In this document: one piece after another, positions 2,555 to 49,175 of the stretch
Position numbering within the stretch: the first letter of the stretch is position 1
Layout: each line of letters opens with the position of its first letter
Source: Shigella phage ESh28
Reading direction: 5' to 3' (one strand)
Length of the DNA: 64,000 nucleotides
Sequence record: ON528738
Position numbers and translations under genes: made by a program
Notes under the pieces: model-generated
Told to the model about the DNA's origin: nothing
Databases searched by the model: none
Seen by the model: the letters and a program-made list of their open reading frames with translations, nothing else

Positions 2555-3028
2555 ATGAAAACATATCAAGAATTTATTACTGAAGCAGCTATTAATTCTC
2601 AAATTATTGCTGAATCTTTTACTGATCTTTTGAAATTTAAAAAAGGTCAAAAAATCACTGCTGTATTGGATGATGGTACAGAAGTTGAGATGGATGTACA
2701 GGGATATAATTATGCAGTAGATGGAAAACTGTATAATAAATCTCATGCTAAATTTGATTCATTTGACGATTTTGTTAATACAGTTGAAGATGAAAAAACT
2801 CGTAGATCCATTGCAACTGGCGACGCTAAGGTTCTTATGGCACACGGTCATGAACGTATCCGCGTCAAACAGAATAAAATGGGCGAAGATAATTTCGCAT
2901 TAGTTGGTTATCAATCTGGTAAACAAACTTATGGCTATCAACGTACTGCTACCATGTATAACAAAAATGGTAAAATTGCCTTTGTAAATAGTAAAGGTTC
3001 TATTCAGTACGTTAAATCGTTCAAATAA
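2555..3028 (+). CDS. internal-protein-like polypeptide with capsid targeting sequence
   Basis: N terminus MKTYQEFITEAA matches the T4 internal protein CTS (MKTYQEFIAE) with I-x-E prohead protease sites; size fits neither ipII nor ipIII. Confidence 0.6.
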   Translation: MKTYQEFITEAAINSQIIAESFTDLLKFKKGQKITAVLDDGTEVEMDVQGYNYAVDGKLYNKSHAKFDSFDDFVNTVEDEKTRRSIATGDAKVLMAHGHERIRVKQNKMGEDNFALVGYQSGKQTYGYQRTATMYNKNGKIAFVNSKGSIQYVKSFK

Positions 3029-18901: not shown

Positions 18902-19831
18902 ATGAAAACTCGTAAACATTATATTGATTATTTTGACAGTCTTATTACTAAACACCGTAATTATCAGATCGGGCACAGAGCAGTAATCAATAATATTCTT
19001 CGTGATTTCCTTCAATATGTTGGCCAGGAAAATCATATCTGTAAAGATACTCAAAACGCTTATTCTCATTCGTTAGGCAATTTGCTTCAATGGTTTAAAC
19101 GTTCTCGTCTGTTATCTTCTACTGTAGCTAGTGATAACATTAAAAACTTTATGAAGCCGAGCTTCATTAAATCTGAGACATCTATAACCGATTTGGTTGA
19201 ATTTACTATTGTTAACGATGTTAAAAAGACCCATTTGGCTGATTGGTTATCTACCATTCCCGAAACTAAATTTGCTGATAAATTCGCTTGTCAATTCAAT
19301 GACCAAGTGAATATGCTTTTTAAGCATGCTCGTAAACTATTTACCGCGGGCGATGACCGTACAAATACAGTTCATGTTAAGGATTGGGTTATTGCTGATG
19401 AAGTAACACACAAGCCAGGTGGTTCATCAGTATTAATTAATATCCAGGTTCCTTATTATTACTCACGTAATCTCGGCACCATGACAGCTAGAGAAATTAA
19501 TAAGCACAACAAAACTATTCGTTCGTTGTCTTATAAACTCTGCACGATGGTGGAGATGATGGACGTAGTGGAAATGTATGATGAAACCGAAGATAATGGT
19601 TCAATGTTATACAGTTCACGCATTCTAATTAAACTGAAGAACCCTAATACATATAAGACAGTTGTAAAAGAGCCTAAAGTAGAAAAGGTTGATAATCTGA
19701 GTGAAGAACGTGAATATCTCAATGCCCGTTTGACTGAAGTTGAAAAACAAATTGCAGAACACACCAAATTGTTAAAATCTCTTAATGCAAAAGCAAATGG
19801 TTTACGTAATGCTATTGAGGTATTGAAATGA
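18902..19831 (+). CDS. hypothetical protein with C-terminal coiled coil (family member 4)
   Basis: 309 aa; C terminus ...[37 protein letters not shown]. Confidence 0.5.
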   Translation: MKTRKHYIDYFDSLITKHRNYQIGHRAVINNILRDFLQYVGQENHICKDTQNAYSHSLGNLLQWFKRSRLLSSTVASDNIKNFMKPSFIKSETSITDLVEFTIVNDVKKTHLADWLSTIPETKFADKFACQFNDQVNMLFKHARKLFTAGDDRTNTVHVKDWVIADEVTHKPGGSSVLINIQVPYYYSRNLGTMTAREINKHNKTIRSLSYKLCTMVEMMDVVEMYDETEDNGSMLYSSRILIKLKNPNTYKTVVKEPKVEKVDNLSEEREYLNARLTEVEKQIAEHTKLLKSLNAKANGLRNAIEVLK

Positions 19832-45015: not shown

Positions 45016-45044
45016 TTTACAAGCTGACAAGACTATGGTATAGT
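45015..45044 (+). promoter_or_regulatory. T4-type early promoter with -10 inside stem-loop
   Basis: GTTTAC; inverted repeat ACAAGACT / AGTCTTGT flanks TATGGTATAGT. Confidence 0.55.
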
Positions 45045-45870: not shown

Positions 45871-46503
45871 ATGATTTATTATATGCACAAAAATCCACCG
45901 TTTAAATACGGTAAATTTCCTGATGCACAATGTTATAACATAACGCCTGATGAAAATAACCGTGGATATCTTATTGGCACAATTTTTGTAATTGTTAAAG
46001 ATAACGAAATCGTTGCCTGGGCAGATTTTAAAGGTACAACATATGATGTTAATCCGGTGCCTTTCACATATTACAATTTAATGGATTTGGCATACGATTA
46101 TAATTGGTTTAATCATGACACGTTGGCTCATATTGAAGGTGTAGGATTTGACATCTCTTATTCTAGCTACTCATTGTGTCCTATGAGTCGGGCTCATAAA
46201 GAACCTGAATATTTTTCATTTAGGAAACGTGTAAACTTTAAACGCAACACAGAGTATGTCGGTGGAATCTTTGTTAAAGATAATCGAATTACTCGCATTA
46301 TTTATCCTTTGGGCTGTGGTCAAAAAGATATTGATGTTGATTTAGACTTTACTGAAAACATCATTAATCATATTGCTTCTGTGTATTTTGGTATCGATCA
46401 CAAAATTGTAATATGTGGATATGAATTACCGTTTGAAGAACAACCTAAAGTAAAAGTTTCTATTGACGATCAAATTTTTAATGCTTTTATGAATAAAGGT
46501 TAA
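45871..46503 (+). CDS. hypothetical protein (61.2-position), shares C-terminal tail with next ORF
   Basis: 210 aa; C terminus ...SIDDQIFNAFMNKG. Confidence 0.5.
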   Translation: MIYYMHKNPPFKYGKFPDAQCYNITPDENNRGYLIGTIFVIVKDNEIVAWADFKGTTYDVNPVPFTYYNLMDLAYDYNWFNHDTLAHIEGVGFDISYSSYSLCPMSRAHKEPEYFSFRKRVNFKRNTEYVGGIFVKDNRITRIIYPLGCGQKDIDVDLDFTENIINHIASVYFGIDHKIVICGYELPFEEQPKVKVSIDDQIFNAFMNKG

Positions 46504-46507
46504 TATG
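46459..46507 (+). repeat. direct repeat copy 1 (about 49 bp)
   Basis: TCTATTGACGATCAAATTTTTAATGCTTTTATGAATAAAGGTTAATATG, repeated at 46817 with 3 mismatches. Confidence 0.75.
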
Positions 46508-46861
46508 TATAGTTCTGAATTTTCATATTTAAAAATGGAAAAAATTTCATACGATTTTATAGATGAAAAGGTTTATTACAGTTTCCATGAACCACGTTTT
46601 AATAGTGAGGTTGGGTTTATTGTAGTAAAAGACAATTTCATTTTAAAGATATATTCGGCATTAAAGGATTTTCACTACGAAAATATTAACCTAAAATTTG
46701 ATAAAGAAAACGTTCGTAATTGTGCAGTAACAATTACAGGAAATAAAGGCACATGTGTTATGCTATCTGATGAAATTAATGATTTGCTAAATGATGCCGA
46801 AAAGGTTGCTATTCCATCTATTGATGACCAAATTTTTAATGCTTTTATGAATAGAGGTTAA
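46505..46861 (+). CDS. hypothetical protein flanked by direct repeats
   Basis: 118 aa; C terminus ...SIDDQIFNAFMNRG encoded by repeat copy 2. Confidence 0.45.
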   Translation: MYSSEFSYLKMEKISYDFIDEKVYYSFHEPRFNSEVGFIVVKDNFILKIYSALKDFHYENINLKFDKENVRNCAVTITGNKGTCVMLSDEINDLLNDAEKVAIPSIDDQIFNAFMNRG

Positions 46862-46865
46862 TATG
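46817..46865 (+). repeat. direct repeat copy 2 (about 49 bp)
   Basis: TCTATTGATGACCAAATTTTTAATGCTTTTATGAATAGAGGTTAATATG. Confidence 0.75.
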
Positions 46866-47027
46866 AAAACATATAAAGAATTTATTAAAGAAGATATGGT
46901 AGCTGGAGATTCAGGTGGTAATCCTGAAAATATCTCTACTGGAACAACATCAGGTGCTGTAGTAAATAAAGGTCCTGAACAGATTCCTAAAAAGAAAAAA
47001 GAGGAATCTAAAGAAAAAGAAGAGTAA
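46863..47027 (+). CDS. small ORF with capsid-targeting-sequence-like N terminus
   Basis: 54 aa; MKTYKEFIKED resembles internal protein CTS; GAGGTTAATATG start; low-complexity Lys/Glu tail. Confidence 0.35.
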   Translation: MKTYKEFIKEDMVAGDSGGNPENISTGTTSGAVVNKGPEQIPKKKKEESKEKEE

Positions 47028-47029
47028 AA

Positions 47030-48058
47030 ATGTCATCAATACCTTGGATTGATAATGAGTTTGCGTATCGTGCATTAGCTCATTTACCTAAATTCACACA
47101 AGTAAATAATAGTTCAACTTTTAAATTGCGGTTTAGATGCCCTGTTTGTGGAGATTCAAAAACCGACCAGAATAAAGCTCGTGGATGGTATTATGGTGAT
47201 AATAATGAAGGAAATATTCATTGTTATAACTGTAACTATCATGCACCAATCGGAATATATTTAAAGGAGTTTGAACCTGATTTATATCGTGAGTATATCT
47301 TTGAAATAAGAAAAGAAAAAGGTAAAAGTCGTCCAATAGAAAAACCTAAAGAACTTCCTAAACAACCTGAGAAGAAAATAATTAAATCTCTTCCGTCATG
47401 CGTTAGATTAGATAAACTGGCGGAAGACCATCCAATTATAAAATATGTAAAAGCTCGTTGTATTCCAAAGGATAAATGGAAATTTCTTTGGTTTACAACC
47501 GAATGGCCTAAATTAGTTAATAGCATAGCACCGGGAACATACAAAAAGGAAATTTCTGAGCCTCGTCTTGTTATTCCAATTTATAATGCTAACGGAAAAG
47601 CCGAGTCTTTTCAAGGACGCGCATTAAAGAAAGATGCTCCTCAAAAATATATCACCATCAAAGCTTATCCTGAGGCAACAAAAATTTACGGTGTTGAACG
47701 AGTTAAAGATGGTGATGTATATGTTCTAGAAGGACCTATAGATTCGCTTTTTATTGAAAATGGTATAGCTATTACGGGTGGTCAATTAGACCTAGAAGTT
47801 GTTCCATTTAAAGATAGACGAGTGTGGGTTTTAGATAATGAACCTCGTCATCCTGACACTATCAAGCGAATGACTAAATTAGTTGATGCAGGAGAAAGGG
47901 TTATGTTTTGGGATAAATCTCCCTGGAAATCAAAAGATGTTAATGATATGATTAGAAAGGAAGGTGCAACCCCTGAACAAATTATGGAATATATGAAAAA
48001 TAATATTGCCCAGGGGTTGATGGCTAAAATGCGGCTATCTAAATATGCTAAGATTTAA
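47030..48058 (+). CDS. 61: DNA primase gp61
   Basis: 342 aa; N-terminal zinc ribbon CPVCGDS ... CYNCNYH; matches T4 gp61. Confidence 0.9.
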   Translation: MSSIPWIDNEFAYRALAHLPKFTQVNNSSTFKLRFRCPVCGDSKTDQNKARGWYYGDNNEGNIHCYNCNYHAPIGIYLKEFEPDLYREYIFEIRKEKGKSRPIEKPKELPKQPEKKIIKSLPSCVRLDKLAEDHPIIKYVKARCIPKDKWKFLWFTTEWPKLVNSIAPGTYKKEISEPRLVIPIYNANGKAESFQGRALKKDAPQKYITIKAYPEATKIYGVERVKDGDVYVLEGPIDSLFIENGIAITGGQLDLEVVPFKDRRVWVLDNEPRHPDTIKRMTKLVDAGERVMFWDKSPWKSKDVNDMIRKEGATPEQIMEYMKNNIAQGLMAKMRLSKYAKI

Positions 48059-48255
48059 ATCAACCCAACTAAAGCAAATGCTAAATCTACGAATGTATCA
48101 AGAGTAACTATTGGAATATTAATACCATGTGCAATTGCAACAGGTGATAGAATAAAGTTCCAGAGTAAAATTCCTACCATAGCAGAAATAGTAAAAGCTA
48201 TACGTTTTTTATTACCTTTTATGGCATTAACAAGTGCCATTAATTTTTGTACCAT
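48055..48255 (-). CDS. small two-helix membrane protein, antisense to the early genes
   Basis: 66 aa hydrophobic ORF on minus strand in the 61-56 gap; strong minus-strand SD TAAGGAGG four nt before ATG; AATAAATA late-promoter-like box upstream. Confidence 0.5.
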   Translation of the reverse strand: MVQKLMALVNAIKGNKKRIAFTISAMVGILLWNFILSPVAIAHGINIPIVTLDTFVDLAFALVGLI

Positions 48256-48891: not shown

Positions 48892-48899
48892 TATAAATA
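48892..48899 (+). promoter_or_regulatory. late promoter box TATAAATA for soc
   Basis: Exact TATAAATA about 30 nt upstream of soc ATG. Confidence 0.6.
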
Positions 48900-48929: not shown

Positions 48930-49175
48930 ATGGCTAGTACTCGCGGTTATGTTAATATCAAAACATTTGAGCAGAAATTAGATGGAAATAAGAAAATTGA
49001 AGGAAAGGAAATTTCAGTAGCTTTCCCTCTTTATTCTGACGTTCACAAAATTTCTGGCGCTCATTACCAGACATTCCCTTCAGAAAAAGCAGCATATACT
49101 ACTGTATATGAAGAAAATCAACGTGCTGCATGGATTGCTGCAAACGAAGATTTGTGGAAAGTAACTGGTGGTTAA
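48930..49175 (+). CDS. soc: small outer capsid protein Soc
   Basis: 81 aa; MASTRGYVNIKTFEQKLDGNKKIEGKEISVAFPLYSDVHKISGAHYQTF matches T4 Soc. Confidence 0.9.
   Translation: MASTRGYVNIKTFEQKLDGNKKIEGKEISVAFPLYSDVHKISGAHYQTFPSEKAAYTTVYEENQRAAWIAANEDLWKVTGG

What the first reader, a model, noticed from the sequence alone, without database searches (positions are those of the whole stretch)
46863..47027. Second CTS-like N terminus on a 54-codon ORF immediately upstream of the primase gene
An untracked ORF starts with a good SD (GAGGTTAATATG) and encodes MKTYKEFIKEDM..., closely resembling the internal-protein CTS (MKTYQEFIAE) with an I-K-E site, followed by a low-complexity Gly/Ser then Lys/Glu-rich tail. 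If real, a small packaged peptide would be delivered into the host with the DNA.
Basis: seen in the sequence. Interest (0 to 1): 0.5.

Follow-up and report, generated by a model that had tools for sequence, protein, structure and literature searches.

The report
Capsid-protein mimic gene 61.1 of T4-like phage
The 54-codon ORF is the real, conserved but uncharacterised T4 gene 61.1, and its product copies the stretch of the major capsid protein around its maturation cut site behind an internal-protein-style head-targeting tag, so it may be an overlooked head component; packaging remains untested.

Summary
Window 46863..47027 (+) encodes MKTYKEFIKE... behind a GAGG Shine-Dalgarno sequence. It is already annotated in T4-like genomes as gene 61.1 (hypothetical).

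It is a real gene. A homologue is present in over 1,000 T4-like phage genomes, it lies directly upstream of primase gene 61 in every straboviral genome examined, and dN/dS is about 0.1.

The main new point is that the "low-complexity Gly/Ser" stretch is not low complexity. Residues 2-38 align without gaps to major capsid protein gp23 residues 57-93. This region spans the gp21 protease site (gp23 FLTE65|A; here FIKE10|D) and the "N-fist" of mature gp23. A family HMM scores gp23 at 47-49 bits against 5 bits for the next ORF. T4 gp23 chains are the only PDB hits.

Tyr4, Phe7, Ile8 and Glu10 match the four experimentally defined positions of the capsid targeting sequence. However, this tag is lineage-specific: most T4-like phages carry a ~100-aa domain there instead.

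Many relatives have a late promoter (TATAAATA) just upstream. One family member is fused to a protein kinase.

Genome-wide screens find T4 61.1 non-essential, and infected-cell proteomics did not detect the protein.

Packaging and cleavage are plausible (about 0.4) but unproven.

The parts
46854..46857 (+). Shine-Dalgarno GAGG, 5 nt upstream of the ATG
46863..47027 (+). Gene 61.1 CDS (54 codons plus TAA)
   Evidence: ORF list. Annotated as 61.1 in RB51/AR1 at 99.1% DNA identity. phrog_1823 over full length, E 7e-34. dN/dS about 0.1.
46863..46892 (+). Codons 1-10, MKTYKEFIKE: CTS-like tag ending in the predicted gp21 site I-K-E10|D11
   Evidence: 8/10 aa and 27/30 nt identical to the CTS of the internal-protein gene at 2555. 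Tyr4, Phe7, Ile8 and Glu10 match the experimentally defined CTS positions. They align with gp23 Phe59, Phe62, Leu63 and Glu65.
46893..46988 (+). Codons 11-42, DMVAGDSGGNPENISTGTTSGAVVNKGPEQIP: homologue of the first ~30 residues of mature gp23* (N-fist and start of the N-arm)
   Evidence: BLASTP against RB51 gp23: 16/37 identical, ungapped, E 1e-8. Family HMM scores gp23 of four genera at 46.6-49.2 bits against 5 bits for the next ORF. PDB-wide search returns gp23 only, E 1.3e-5.
46989..47024 (+). Codons 43-54, KKKKEESKEKEE: Lys cluster plus a variable tail. Contains the slippery run AAAAAGAAAAAAG (46989-47001).
   Evidence: A Lys/Arg cluster follows GP..(I/L)P in nearly all family members. 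Deleting one A from the run reproduces the 62-aa T6-type variant P0002 exactly.
46846..46853 (+). TATGAATA: 7/8 match to the T4 late-promoter box TATAAATA, at the place where relatives carry a perfect box
   Evidence: Activity is unknown, and the position-4 mismatch is probably disabling (my inference).
46837..46864 (+). Possible MotA-type middle promoter (TAATGCTTTT, 12-nt spacer, TAATAT) overlapping the 61.1 start. If active, it would start transcripts inside 61.1 and serve gene 61.
   Evidence: Seen by eye; not tested.
46505..46861 (+). Upstream neighbour (context): 118-aa truncated paralogue of 61.2/AdfA
   Evidence: Pfam PF23813 AdfA, profile positions 113-211, E 2.3e-8. Annotated RB32ORF033c, 'similar to gp61.2'.
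47030..48058 (+). Downstream neighbour (context): gene 61 DNA primase, starting 2 nt after the 61.1 stop
   Evidence: phrog_47 DNA primase, E 1e-105
2555..3028 (+).

Best explanation
What it is:
- The ORF is gene 61.1 of a T4-like (Tequatrovirus) phage. It is a 54-aa, largely disordered protein.
- It is a miniature paralogue of the major capsid protein's maturation junction.
- Residues 4-10 (YKEFIKE) correspond to positions P7-P1 of the gp23 site cut by the prohead protease gp21.
- Residues 11-42 correspond to the first ~30 residues of mature gp23*. In the expanded capsid this is the 'N-fist' that docks on four neighbouring subunits.
- A Lys cluster follows.

Most likely mechanism:
1. The N-terminal 10 residues act like the capsid targeting sequence of internal proteins IPI-III and bring gp61.1 into the assembling prohead core.
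2. gp21 cuts after Glu10 (IKE|D), in register with its cut after gp23 Glu65.
3. The 44-aa, 4.6-kDa N-fist-like peptide stays in or on the head as a dispensable accessory component. It is either held with the DNA or docked on gp23/gp24.
4. In most other T4-like genera a ~100-aa helical N-domain takes the place of the 10-aa tag, in front of the same junction.

Shown: gene reality, homology to gp23 in register with the cleavage site, CTS residue pattern, family distribution, promoter motifs, dispensability.

Inferred: prohead targeting, cleavage, retention, and any role after that.
For: Real gene:
- Annotated as 61.1 at 99.1% DNA identity.
- dN/dS 0.07-0.33 with saturated dS.
- tblastn matches in 1,485 phage records, spanning Escherichia, Klebsiella, Acinetobacter, Aeromonas and Vibrio phages.

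Homology to gp23:
- 16/37 identical, ungapped, with FIKE10 over FLTE65.
- A 72-sequence family HMM gives 46.6-49.2 bits for gp23 of RB51, RB69, RB16 and KARL-1. The next ORF of 1,150 scores 5 bits, and gp24 is not hit.
- An HMM built from long forms only still scores gp23 at 26-32 bits.
- In 177,635 PDB sequences, the only four hits at E<=10 are T4 gp23 chains.

Cleavage and targeting signals:
- Hydrophobic-x-Glu at the aligned position in 68/72 family members.
- CTS determinants at residues 4, 7, 8 and 10 are all present.

Structural context (PMC9546572 and PMC9958956):
- gp23* residues 66-105 lie inside the prohead, near the scaffold core.
- After expansion they become an external arm plus a 25-residue N-fist.

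Expression:
- A perfect TATAAATA lies 13-21 nt upstream of the start in JS98/VR5-like, L015 and L025/26 loci. 7/8 variants sit at the same spot in five other lineages.
- The motif occurs only 5 times in the whole window.
- In the T4 omics table, 61.1 has the same 'early' transcript class as ipII and ipIII.

Other family members:
- In Rhizobium phage RHph_I1_18 the module is fused N-terminally to a T7 gp0.7-like protein kinase. The layout resembles Alt, the packaged T4 ADP-ribosyltransferase that carries a CTS.
- In cyanophage BUCT-ZZ01 the family member sits among structural genes.

Dispensability:
- T4 61.1 is non-essential, as the internal proteins are: 13/13 TA sites hit in HIDEN-SEQ, and 'Not Fit' in CRISPRi-ART.
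Against: - No direct evidence of packaging or cleavage was found anywhere.
- The T4 time-course proteome did not detect the protein.
- No text in the searchable library mentions MKTYKEF or the T4 identifiers for 61.1.
- This window has no intact late promoter before 61.1 (TATGAATA, 7/8). The gene sits in an early transcription unit that starts after gene 41.
- In JS98 the 61.1 tag has drifted (F7V, I8M), while that phage's internal proteins keep the canonical CTS. The tag is therefore not under the same constraint everywhere.
- Long forms lack the aromatic residues at P7 and P4.
- A 4.6-kDa disordered peptide could escape through the 14-17 A capsomer openings, as scaffold fragments do.
- Published 3-4 A head maps were interpreted without such a component. 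The one exception is an unassigned helical density under gp24*.
Confidence: 0.4

Rival explanations
1. gp61.1 is a cytoplasmic decoy or mimic of the gp23 junction and N-fist, and is not packaged. Made from early times, it would occupy a partner that recognises the N-terminal part of newly made gp23. That partner could be a host or prophage immune sensor of the capsid protein, or gp21/scaffold/chaperone sites that control when gp23 assembles or is cut.
For: - It lies in a run of counter-defence and competition genes: dmd, 61.4, sp, and 61.2, which matches Pfam AdfA (PF23813) at E 1e-137. From my own knowledge, 61.4 is the anti-ToxIN factor tifA.
- The transcript is early in T4.
- The gene is non-essential on laboratory E. 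coli.
- It mimics a capsid segment that is flexible and exposed before expansion.
- Capsid proteins are known immune triggers: Gol/Lit, PMC3014915.
Against: - Counter-defence genes are usually patchy. This family is present and syntenic across Escherichia, Acinetobacter, Aeromonas and Vibrio phages.
- Consensus late promoters in many lineages.
- It was not among the hits reported in the main text of the HIDEN-SEQ preprint for the defence systems and clinical isolates tested.
- The matched region (gp23 57-101) lies upstream of the conserved stretch I take to be the Gol region. That placement is from memory, not verified.
- The kinase fusion and the structural-module location of distant members fit a targeting role better.
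Confidence: 0.25
2. gp61.1 is a replication-linked small protein. It could be an accessory or regulator of primase gp61, or an upstream ORF that sets gene 61 translation by coupling. Its resemblance to gp23 would then be an evolutionary leftover.
For: - A 61.1 homologue lies immediately upstream of gene 61 in RB51, RB69, RB16 (one small ORF between), Aeromonas phage 65, Vibrio phage VH7D and Acinetobacter phage KARL-1.
- In this window the stop and the gene 61 ATG are 2 nt apart.
- The gene lies in an early transcription unit.
Against: - In phage 65 and VH7D a hairpin plus T-run, followed by an intergenic gap, separates it from gene 61. Coupling is therefore not conserved.
- The peptide sequence itself is strongly conserved, which a mere leader ORF would not need.
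- The cyanophage member is in the structural module, and the rhizobiophage member is fused to a kinase.
- Homology is to a capsid protein, not to any replication protein.
Confidence: 0.1
3. It is a chance ORF or a decaying fragment of gene 23 with no function of its own.
For: It is very short, AlphaFold2 confidence is low (pLDDT 61), there is no Pfam or NCBIfam family, and the protein was not detected by MS.
Against: - dN/dS is about 0.1 with saturated synonymous sites.
- 18 columns are invariant across 15 homologues.
- DNA identity to gene 23 over the aligned 120 nt is only 57/120, so this is not a recent copy.
- It is conserved with an SD and in synteny across genera.
Confidence: 0.02

Closest known systems
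T4 internal proteins IPI, IPII, IPIII and Alt (CTS-bearing, gp21-processed, injected head proteins)
   Same: - A 10-residue N-terminal tag, 8/10 identical to the window's own internal-protein CTS, with the four functionally defined positions conserved.
- An I-x-E cleavage motif.
- Dispensable on laboratory hosts.
- Early transcript class, as for ipII and ipIII.
- Late-promoter motif in relatives, as seen upstream of a JS98 internal-protein gene.
   Different: - The predicted mature part is only 44 aa, far smaller than the internal proteins here (157 aa; 303- and 582-nt genes in T4).
- The mature part is homologous to gp23 rather than being a variable effector.
- It is conserved across the whole T4 superfamily, whereas internal proteins are hypervariable.
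- The tag is absent from most family members.
- It is encoded next to the primase gene, not at the ip loci.
- Packaging has never been shown.
Major capsid protein gp23 (T4-type HK97-fold capsid protein), N-terminal junction and N-fist
   Same: Clear sequence homology to gp23 residues 57-101. This covers the gp21 site (E65|A66) and the N-fist motif GD.G....NIA.G.TSGAV...GP.
   Different: It lacks the whole HK97-fold body and the 56 residues of the propeptide (the Delta-piece removed by gp21) upstream of the match. It carries a Lys-rich tail instead. Database names such as 'major capsid (domain-containing) protein' given to family members are therefore misleading.
Long N-terminal propeptides of head/ejection proteins in giant phages (SPN3US, phiKZ-like)
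   Same: Long-form family members have a ~100-aa N-domain followed by a protease-type motif. This is comparable to the 100-130-residue propeptides cut by a T4-like prohead protease (PMC5694885).
   Different: No sequence or fold similarity was tested or found. No processing data exist for the 61.1 family.
T4 internal peptides II and VII (small acid-soluble head peptides produced by gp21; from my own knowledge)
   Same: They are small gp21 products retained in the head. The predicted 61.1 product is likewise small, and in this phage it is acidic overall (pI 5.0).
   Different: Those peptides derive from scaffold/core proteins (gp67/gp68/gp22), not from a dedicated gene. No sequence relationship was examined.

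Membership tests
gp61.1 family (phrog_1823 short form; phrog_2086 and phrog_18642 long forms) | Full-length match to the family profile | tested here: met
   phrog_1823, residues 1-54 of 54, E 7e-34. phrog_2086, profile positions 109-154, E 2.6e-16.
gp61.1 family (phrog_1823 short form; phrog_2086 and phrog_18642 long forms) | Position immediately upstream of primase gene 61 | tested here: met
   Window; RB51, RB69, RB16, phage 65, VH7D, KARL-1. In 17 of 21 IMG/VR loci a long ORF follows within 3-46 nt; the script found none in the other four.
T4 CTS-bearing internal head proteins (IPI-III, Alt) | N-terminal ~10-aa CTS with the targeting residues at positions 4 and 7 | tested here: met
   Tyr4 and Phe7 are present; 8/10 identical to MKTYQEFITE at 2555. 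The T4 guide RNA sequences reverse-complement to MKTFKEFIKE (my translation).
T4 CTS-bearing internal head proteins (IPI-III, Alt) | gp21 processing motif (L/I)-x-E at positions 8-10 | tested here: met
   I8-K9-E10 followed by D11. Hydrophobic-x-E in 68/72 family members.
T4 CTS-bearing internal head proteins (IPI-III, Alt) | Physical presence in proheads/virions and cleavage by gp21 | not testable with these tools
   No virion proteome listing 61.1 was found. Infected-cell MS did not detect it. Literature searches were negative.
T4 CTS-bearing internal head proteins (IPI-III, Alt) | Protein available during late prohead assembly (late, or early plus late, expression) | tested here: inconclusive
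   Perfect or 7/8 TATAAATA upstream in most relatives, but only TATGAATA here. The T4 transcript is 'early', like ipII and ipIII.
T4 CTS-bearing internal head proteins (IPI-III, Alt) | The tag is conserved together with the internal-protein CTS of the same phage (shared binding target) | tested here: not met
   JS98 internal proteins begin MKTYQEFIKE, MKTYKEFIAE and MKTYNEFLNE, whereas JS98 61.1 begins MKSFKEVMNE. Long forms have no tag.
Major capsid protein gp23 family (HK97 fold) | HK97-fold body (A, P, I domains) able to form capsomers | tested here: not met
   It has 54 aa in total, and homology is confined to gp23 residues 57-101. The AF2 model is mostly disordered.
Major capsid protein gp23 family (HK97 fold) | Maturation junction plus N-fist motif | tested here: met
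   47-49 bits against gp23 of four genera; gp23 chains are the only PDB hits.

The most novel reading that the evidence does not exclude
The 61.1 family is a free-standing copy of the capsid protein's own maturation junction and N-fist. It would be loaded into proheads and cut by gp21 in register with gp23. Two uses are possible:
- A trans-acting N-fist that fills docking sites lacking a cis N-fist. The vertex protein gp24 shows no match to the motif, and an unassigned density has been reported under gp24*.
- A general, capsid-protein-derived capsid-targeting module that can carry cargo, as the kinase fusion in a rhizobiophage suggests.

Either would add a previously unrecognised head component or targeting signal shared by the whole T4 superfamily.
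Probability: 0.15. Interest if true: 0.75.

Novelty: new variant of a known kind. Interest (0 to 1): 0.55.

Why it matters
The T4 head is one of the best-studied virus assemblies and a vaccine and gene-delivery platform that already exploits the 10-residue CTS.

A conserved, dispensable gene combines that tag with a copy of the capsid protein's cleavage junction and N-fist. That points to one of two things:
- an overlooked small head component, or
- a capsid-protein mimic acting in the cytoplasm.

The comparison also shows that the internal-protein CTS, gp61.1 and the last nine residues of the gp23 propeptide share one pattern: aromatic at P7, aromatic at P4, aliphatic at P3, Glu at P1. This suggests that the CTS imitates the capsid protein's own protease-site region, and that idea is directly testable.

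The long-form N-domain, including its kinase fusion, could provide a second, natural cargo-loading signal.

Tried and rejected
Searches and tests that gave nothing:
- Pfam and NCBIfam scans of the ORF and 14 homologues found no family, so the 'major capsid domain' names could not be traced to a model.
- The narrow 15-sequence profile, run against 1.84 billion representative proteins, found 50 relatives but none of gp23 length at E<=1e-3. Only the broader 72-sequence HMM and the PDB search made the link significant.
- CTS co-variation in JS98 was negative.
- Co-variation between 61.1 and each phage's own gp23 N-fist was not informative. gp23 is nearly invariant in the four pairs obtained, and RB16 and KARL-1 show only hints.
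- A blind 45-kb fetch of Aeromonas phage 65 missed gene 23, as did the first RB16 fetch.
- The AF2 model of the 54-aa protein is low confidence.
- The long-form N-domain model (pLDDT ~85 for residues 10-70) has no PDB fold match. BFVD gave only uncharacterised phage proteins, including larger ones of 387-913 aa.
- The last profile search listed only close relatives, so those larger fusions were not recovered. tblastn found just one, the rhizobiophage fusion.
- The N-domain HMM has no match to the gp23 propeptide, gp67, gp68, gp21, gp22 or anything in the window.
- Literature searches found no functional statement about 61.1.

Ideas considered and rejected:
- A Gol/Lit decoy: the match ends before the conserved gp23 stretch I believe to be Gol. 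That residue range is from memory and could not be verified.
- Recent recombination with an ip gene as the source of the tag: the identical synonymous sites all use codons that are, from my knowledge of T4 codon usage, the preferred ones, so this is not diagnostic.

Full report
**Observation.**
- GAGG lies at 46854-46857, five bases before the ATG.
- The upstream ORF stops at 46859-46861, and the primase gene starts at 47030.
- The product is MKTYKEFIKEDMVAGDSGGNPENISTGTTSGAVVNKGPEQIPKKKKEESKEKEE.
- In a six-frame scan of the whole window only two ORFs begin MKT[YF]xxF. One is this ORF. The other is a 157-aa internal-protein gene at 2555..3028 that begins MKTYQEFITE.
- The two N-termini share 8/10 residues and 27/30 nucleotides.
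- The canonical capsid targeting sequence (CTS) used in T4 engineering is MKTYQEFIAE.
- The resemblance is therefore real and not a chance match.

**Identity.**
- The window is a Tequatrovirus, 99.1% identical here to RB51, RB68 and AR1.
- In those records the ORF is annotated as gene 61.1, 'hypothetical protein'. It lies in the order 41, dmd, 61.4, sp, 61.2, an extra 61.2-like ORF, 61.1, 61.
- It matches phrog_1823 over its full length (E 7e-34). It has no Pfam or NCBIfam family.
- It is under strong purifying selection. Pairwise dN/dS among ten diverged short forms is 0.07-0.33, with synonymous sites at or near saturation.
- tblastn finds it in 1,485 phage records, spanning Escherichia, Klebsiella, Acinetobacter, Aeromonas and Vibrio phages.

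**What the 'low-complexity' region really is.**
- Some sources name homologues 'major capsid domain-containing protein'. Following that lead, I compared gp61.1 with gp23 of RB51.
- Residues 2-38 align without gaps to gp23 residues 57-93: 16/37 identical, E 1e-8.
- F-I-K-E10 falls exactly over F-L-T-E65, the site where the prohead protease gp21 removes the 65-residue gp23 propeptide.
- A 72-sequence HMM of the family core scores gp23 from four genera (RB51, RB69, RB16, Acinetobacter phage KARL-1) at 46.6-49.2 bits. The next best of 1,150 six-frame ORFs scores 5 bits, and the vertex paralogue gp24 is not hit.
- An HMM built only from long-form relatives still scores gp23 at 26-32 bits.
- A profile search of all PDB sequences returns T4 gp23 chains as the only four hits at E<=10. 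The best is E 1.3e-5, covering residues 58-94.
- DNA identity over the aligned 120 nt is only 57/120, so this is an old paralogue and not a recent fragment.
- According to the T4 head structures, gp23* residues 66-105 are disordered and inside the unexpanded head, near the scaffold core. After expansion they form an external arm plus a 25-residue 'N-fist'. The N-fist contacts four subunits and helps to form the Soc binding site.
- gp61.1 therefore consists of a CTS-like tag, then a gp23-type cleavage junction, then an N-fist-like peptide, then a Lys cluster.

**Family anatomy.**
- Exhaustive and word-indexed protein searches show two architectures that share the same C-terminal core, hydrophobic-x-E-x-M-V-A-G-D-S-G-G-...-N-I-A-S-G-x-T-S-G-x-V-...-G-P-...-K-K-K-R-K.
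  - Short forms (50-60 aa) occur in T-even-like phages.
  - Long forms (120-165 aa) carry a ~100-aa N-domain (phrog_2086 and phrog_18642). They occur in RB69-like, RB16/RB43-like, Acinetobacter, Aeromonas and Vibrio (KVP40-like) phages.
- By my reading, hydrophobic-x-Glu sits at the aligned position in 68 of 72 members. The Glu is present in all 72.
- Every short form keeps an aromatic residue at P7, a hydrophobic residue at P3 and Glu at P1.
- The full CTS look (MKT[YF]KEF[IV]xE) holds only in Tequatrovirus and a few relatives.
  - JS98 has MKSFKEVMNE, although its three internal proteins keep MKTY[QKN]EF[IL]xE.
  - Another lineage has MTLLEKYKQSLSE.
- The review of Black's work states that CTS residues 4 and 7 matter for targeting and residues 8 and 10 for processing. 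This window has Tyr4, Phe7, Ile8 and Glu10. gp23 itself has Phe59, Phe62, Leu63 and Glu65 at the aligned positions.
- The tail after the Lys cluster is free to vary. A one-base deletion in the A-run at 46989-47001 reproduces the 62-aa T6-type variant exactly. The pI of the predicted mature peptide ranges from 5.0 (this phage) to 10.

**Context and expression.**
- In this window the gene lies in an early unit. A strong sigma-70-type promoter sits at 45016-45044, just after gene 41. No terminator-like site appears until 48221.
- In the T4 time-course study the 61.1 transcript is classed 'early' and the protein was not detected. ipII and ipIII are also 'early' transcripts in that table.
- Relatives differ sharply just upstream of the start codon.
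  - A perfect T4 late-promoter box, TATAAATA, lies 13-21 nt upstream in JS98/VR5-like loci, L015, L025 and L026.
  - 7/8 variants occupy the same place in five further lineages, including the long forms of KARL-1 and RB69-like phages.
  - The box occurs only five times in the entire 64-kb window, one of them in front of soc.
  - This window has TATGAATA at 46846-46853.
- A homologue sits directly upstream of primase in every straboviral genome I examined. In Aeromonas phage 65 and Vibrio phage VH7D, however, a hairpin plus T-run followed by an intergenic gap separates it from gene 61. Translational coupling is therefore not the conserved feature.

**Distant members.**
- Rhizobium phage RHph_I1_18 encodes a 387-aa protein. 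Residues 4-146 are the long-form module, with a degenerate junction (QQLFEE-IASSNMSGGAVADKGG...KKEKVK). Residues 184-253 match a T7 gp0.7-like protein kinase family. A second kinase paralogue follows.
- Cyanophage BUCT-ZZ01 has a 223-aa member. It lies between a baseplate/virion structural gene on one side and, on the other, two small ORFs that look like spanins (my reading of their sequences) followed by the tail sheath gene.
- Both cases fit a module that brings something to the particle. Neither proves it.

**Function data.**
- T4 61.1 is dispensable on laboratory E. coli. All 13 TA sites tolerate transposons in HIDEN-SEQ ('Non-essential'), and dCas13d knock-down gives 'Not Fit'.
- It is not among the anti-defence hits described in the main text of the HIDEN-SEQ preprint.
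- AlphaFold2 predicts a short N-terminal helix (residues 4-11) and little else (pLDDT 61).
- The long-form N-domain is helical with moderate confidence. It has no solved-structure match.

**Interpretation.**
- The best-supported mechanism is that gp61.1 is a prohead-directed, gp21-processed mini-protein. I give this about 0.4.
- Supporting points:
  - It carries the experimentally defined CTS residues.
  - Its cleavage motif is in register with that of gp23 and is conserved family-wide.
  - Many relatives have late promoters.
  - It is dispensable, like the internal proteins.
  - Distant members look like cargo fusions or structural-module genes.
- Not shown: packaging, cleavage, retention, or any role for the N-fist-like peptide.
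- The main rival, at about 0.25, is a cytoplasmic mimic of the gp23 junction. This would act as an anti-defence decoy or an assembly/protease modulator. It is favoured by the neighbourhood of counter-defence genes and by early expression in T4-type phages.
- A primase-linked role (about 0.1) rests only on synteny.
- A non-functional ORF is excluded by conservation.

**Comparison with known systems.**
- It works most like the CTS-bearing internal proteins and Alt, but I do not file it as a member. Physical packaging is untested. One expectation of shared constraint, co-conservation with the CTS of the phage's own internal proteins, failed in JS98.
- It is homologous to gp23 only over the junction and N-fist, and it is not a capsid protein.
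- The gene is known, while its architecture and likely role have not been described in the searchable literature. The Miller et al. 2003 T4 genome review could not be read.
- I rate it a new variant of a known kind, with interest 0.55.

Noticed in passing
window 45871-46503 and 46505-46861 (+): Gene 61.2 is a full-length AdfA (anti-DarT factor A, Pfam PF23813, E 1e-137). The next ORF (118 aa) is a truncated paralogue of its C-terminal half. Both end in ...DDQIFNAFMN[KR]G. This tandem duplication is absent from the T4 gene table, where 61.1 (18966-19130) directly follows 61.2 (19132-19758).
   Followed up: partly
window 46837-46864 (+): A MotA-box-like TAATGCTTTT, a 12-nt spacer, then TAATAT overlapping the 61.1 start codon. 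If this is an active middle promoter, its transcripts would begin inside 61.1 and express primase without 61.1.
   Followed up: no
window 46989-47001 (+): Slippery run AAAAAGAAAAAAG. Deleting one A gives exactly the 62-aa T6-type gp61.1 variant (tail ...KKKKRNLKKKKSKNVINTLD, pI 10), which overlaps the start of gene 61. Both tail versions occur in nature (P0002, P0004).
   Followed up: yes
window 2555-2584 compared with L001:4414-5979 (RB51 gp23 residues 57-65): The internal-protein CTS (MKTYQEFI[AT]E) shares a pattern with the last nine residues of the gp23 propeptide (QAFGSFLTE): aromatic at P7, aromatic at P4, aliphatic at P3, Glu at P1. These are the four positions that mutagenesis found important. 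The CTS may imitate the capsid protein's own cleavage-site region.
   Followed up: partly
L031:899-1365 (RB69 reference genome): In the RB69 reference the long-form 61.1 is split into ORF032c (63 aa) and '61.1' (92 aa) by a frameshift. Close relatives (L019, L020, L023, L024) encode an intact protein of about 154-164 aa. This is either a sequencing error or a pseudogene in the reference strain.
   Followed up: partly
L036:41-1866 (Rhizobium phage RHph_I1_18): A 387-aa protein joins the 61.1 long-form module to a T7 gp0.7-like protein kinase domain. It is followed by a second, stand-alone kinase paralogue.
   Followed up: partly
L035:2495-3793 (Synechococcus phage BUCT-ZZ01): A 223-aa family member lies in the structural gene region. 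It is followed by two small ORFs that look like an i-spanin (N-terminal TM helix) and an o-spanin (lipoprotein signal ...FISAC), then the tail sheath gene.
   Followed up: no
window 48892-48899 and 48930-49175 (+): One of only four +strand TATAAATA boxes in the window lies 30 nt upstream of the 81-aa ORF at the position of soc in RB51. This fits soc being a late gene embedded in an early region.
   Followed up: no
window 48055-48255 (-): A 66-aa ORF with a hydrophobic sequence lies on the opposite strand, abutting the 3' end of gene 61. It is annotated RB32ORF030w in RB51. It is a lone reverse-strand gene in a + strand block.
   Followed up: no
BFVD hits of model m657495d3ae46: The long-form module also matches the N-termini of uncharacterised phage proteins of 396, 672 and 913 aa (27-37% identity). 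These are possibly further cargo fusions. Their sequences could not be retrieved here.
   Followed up: no
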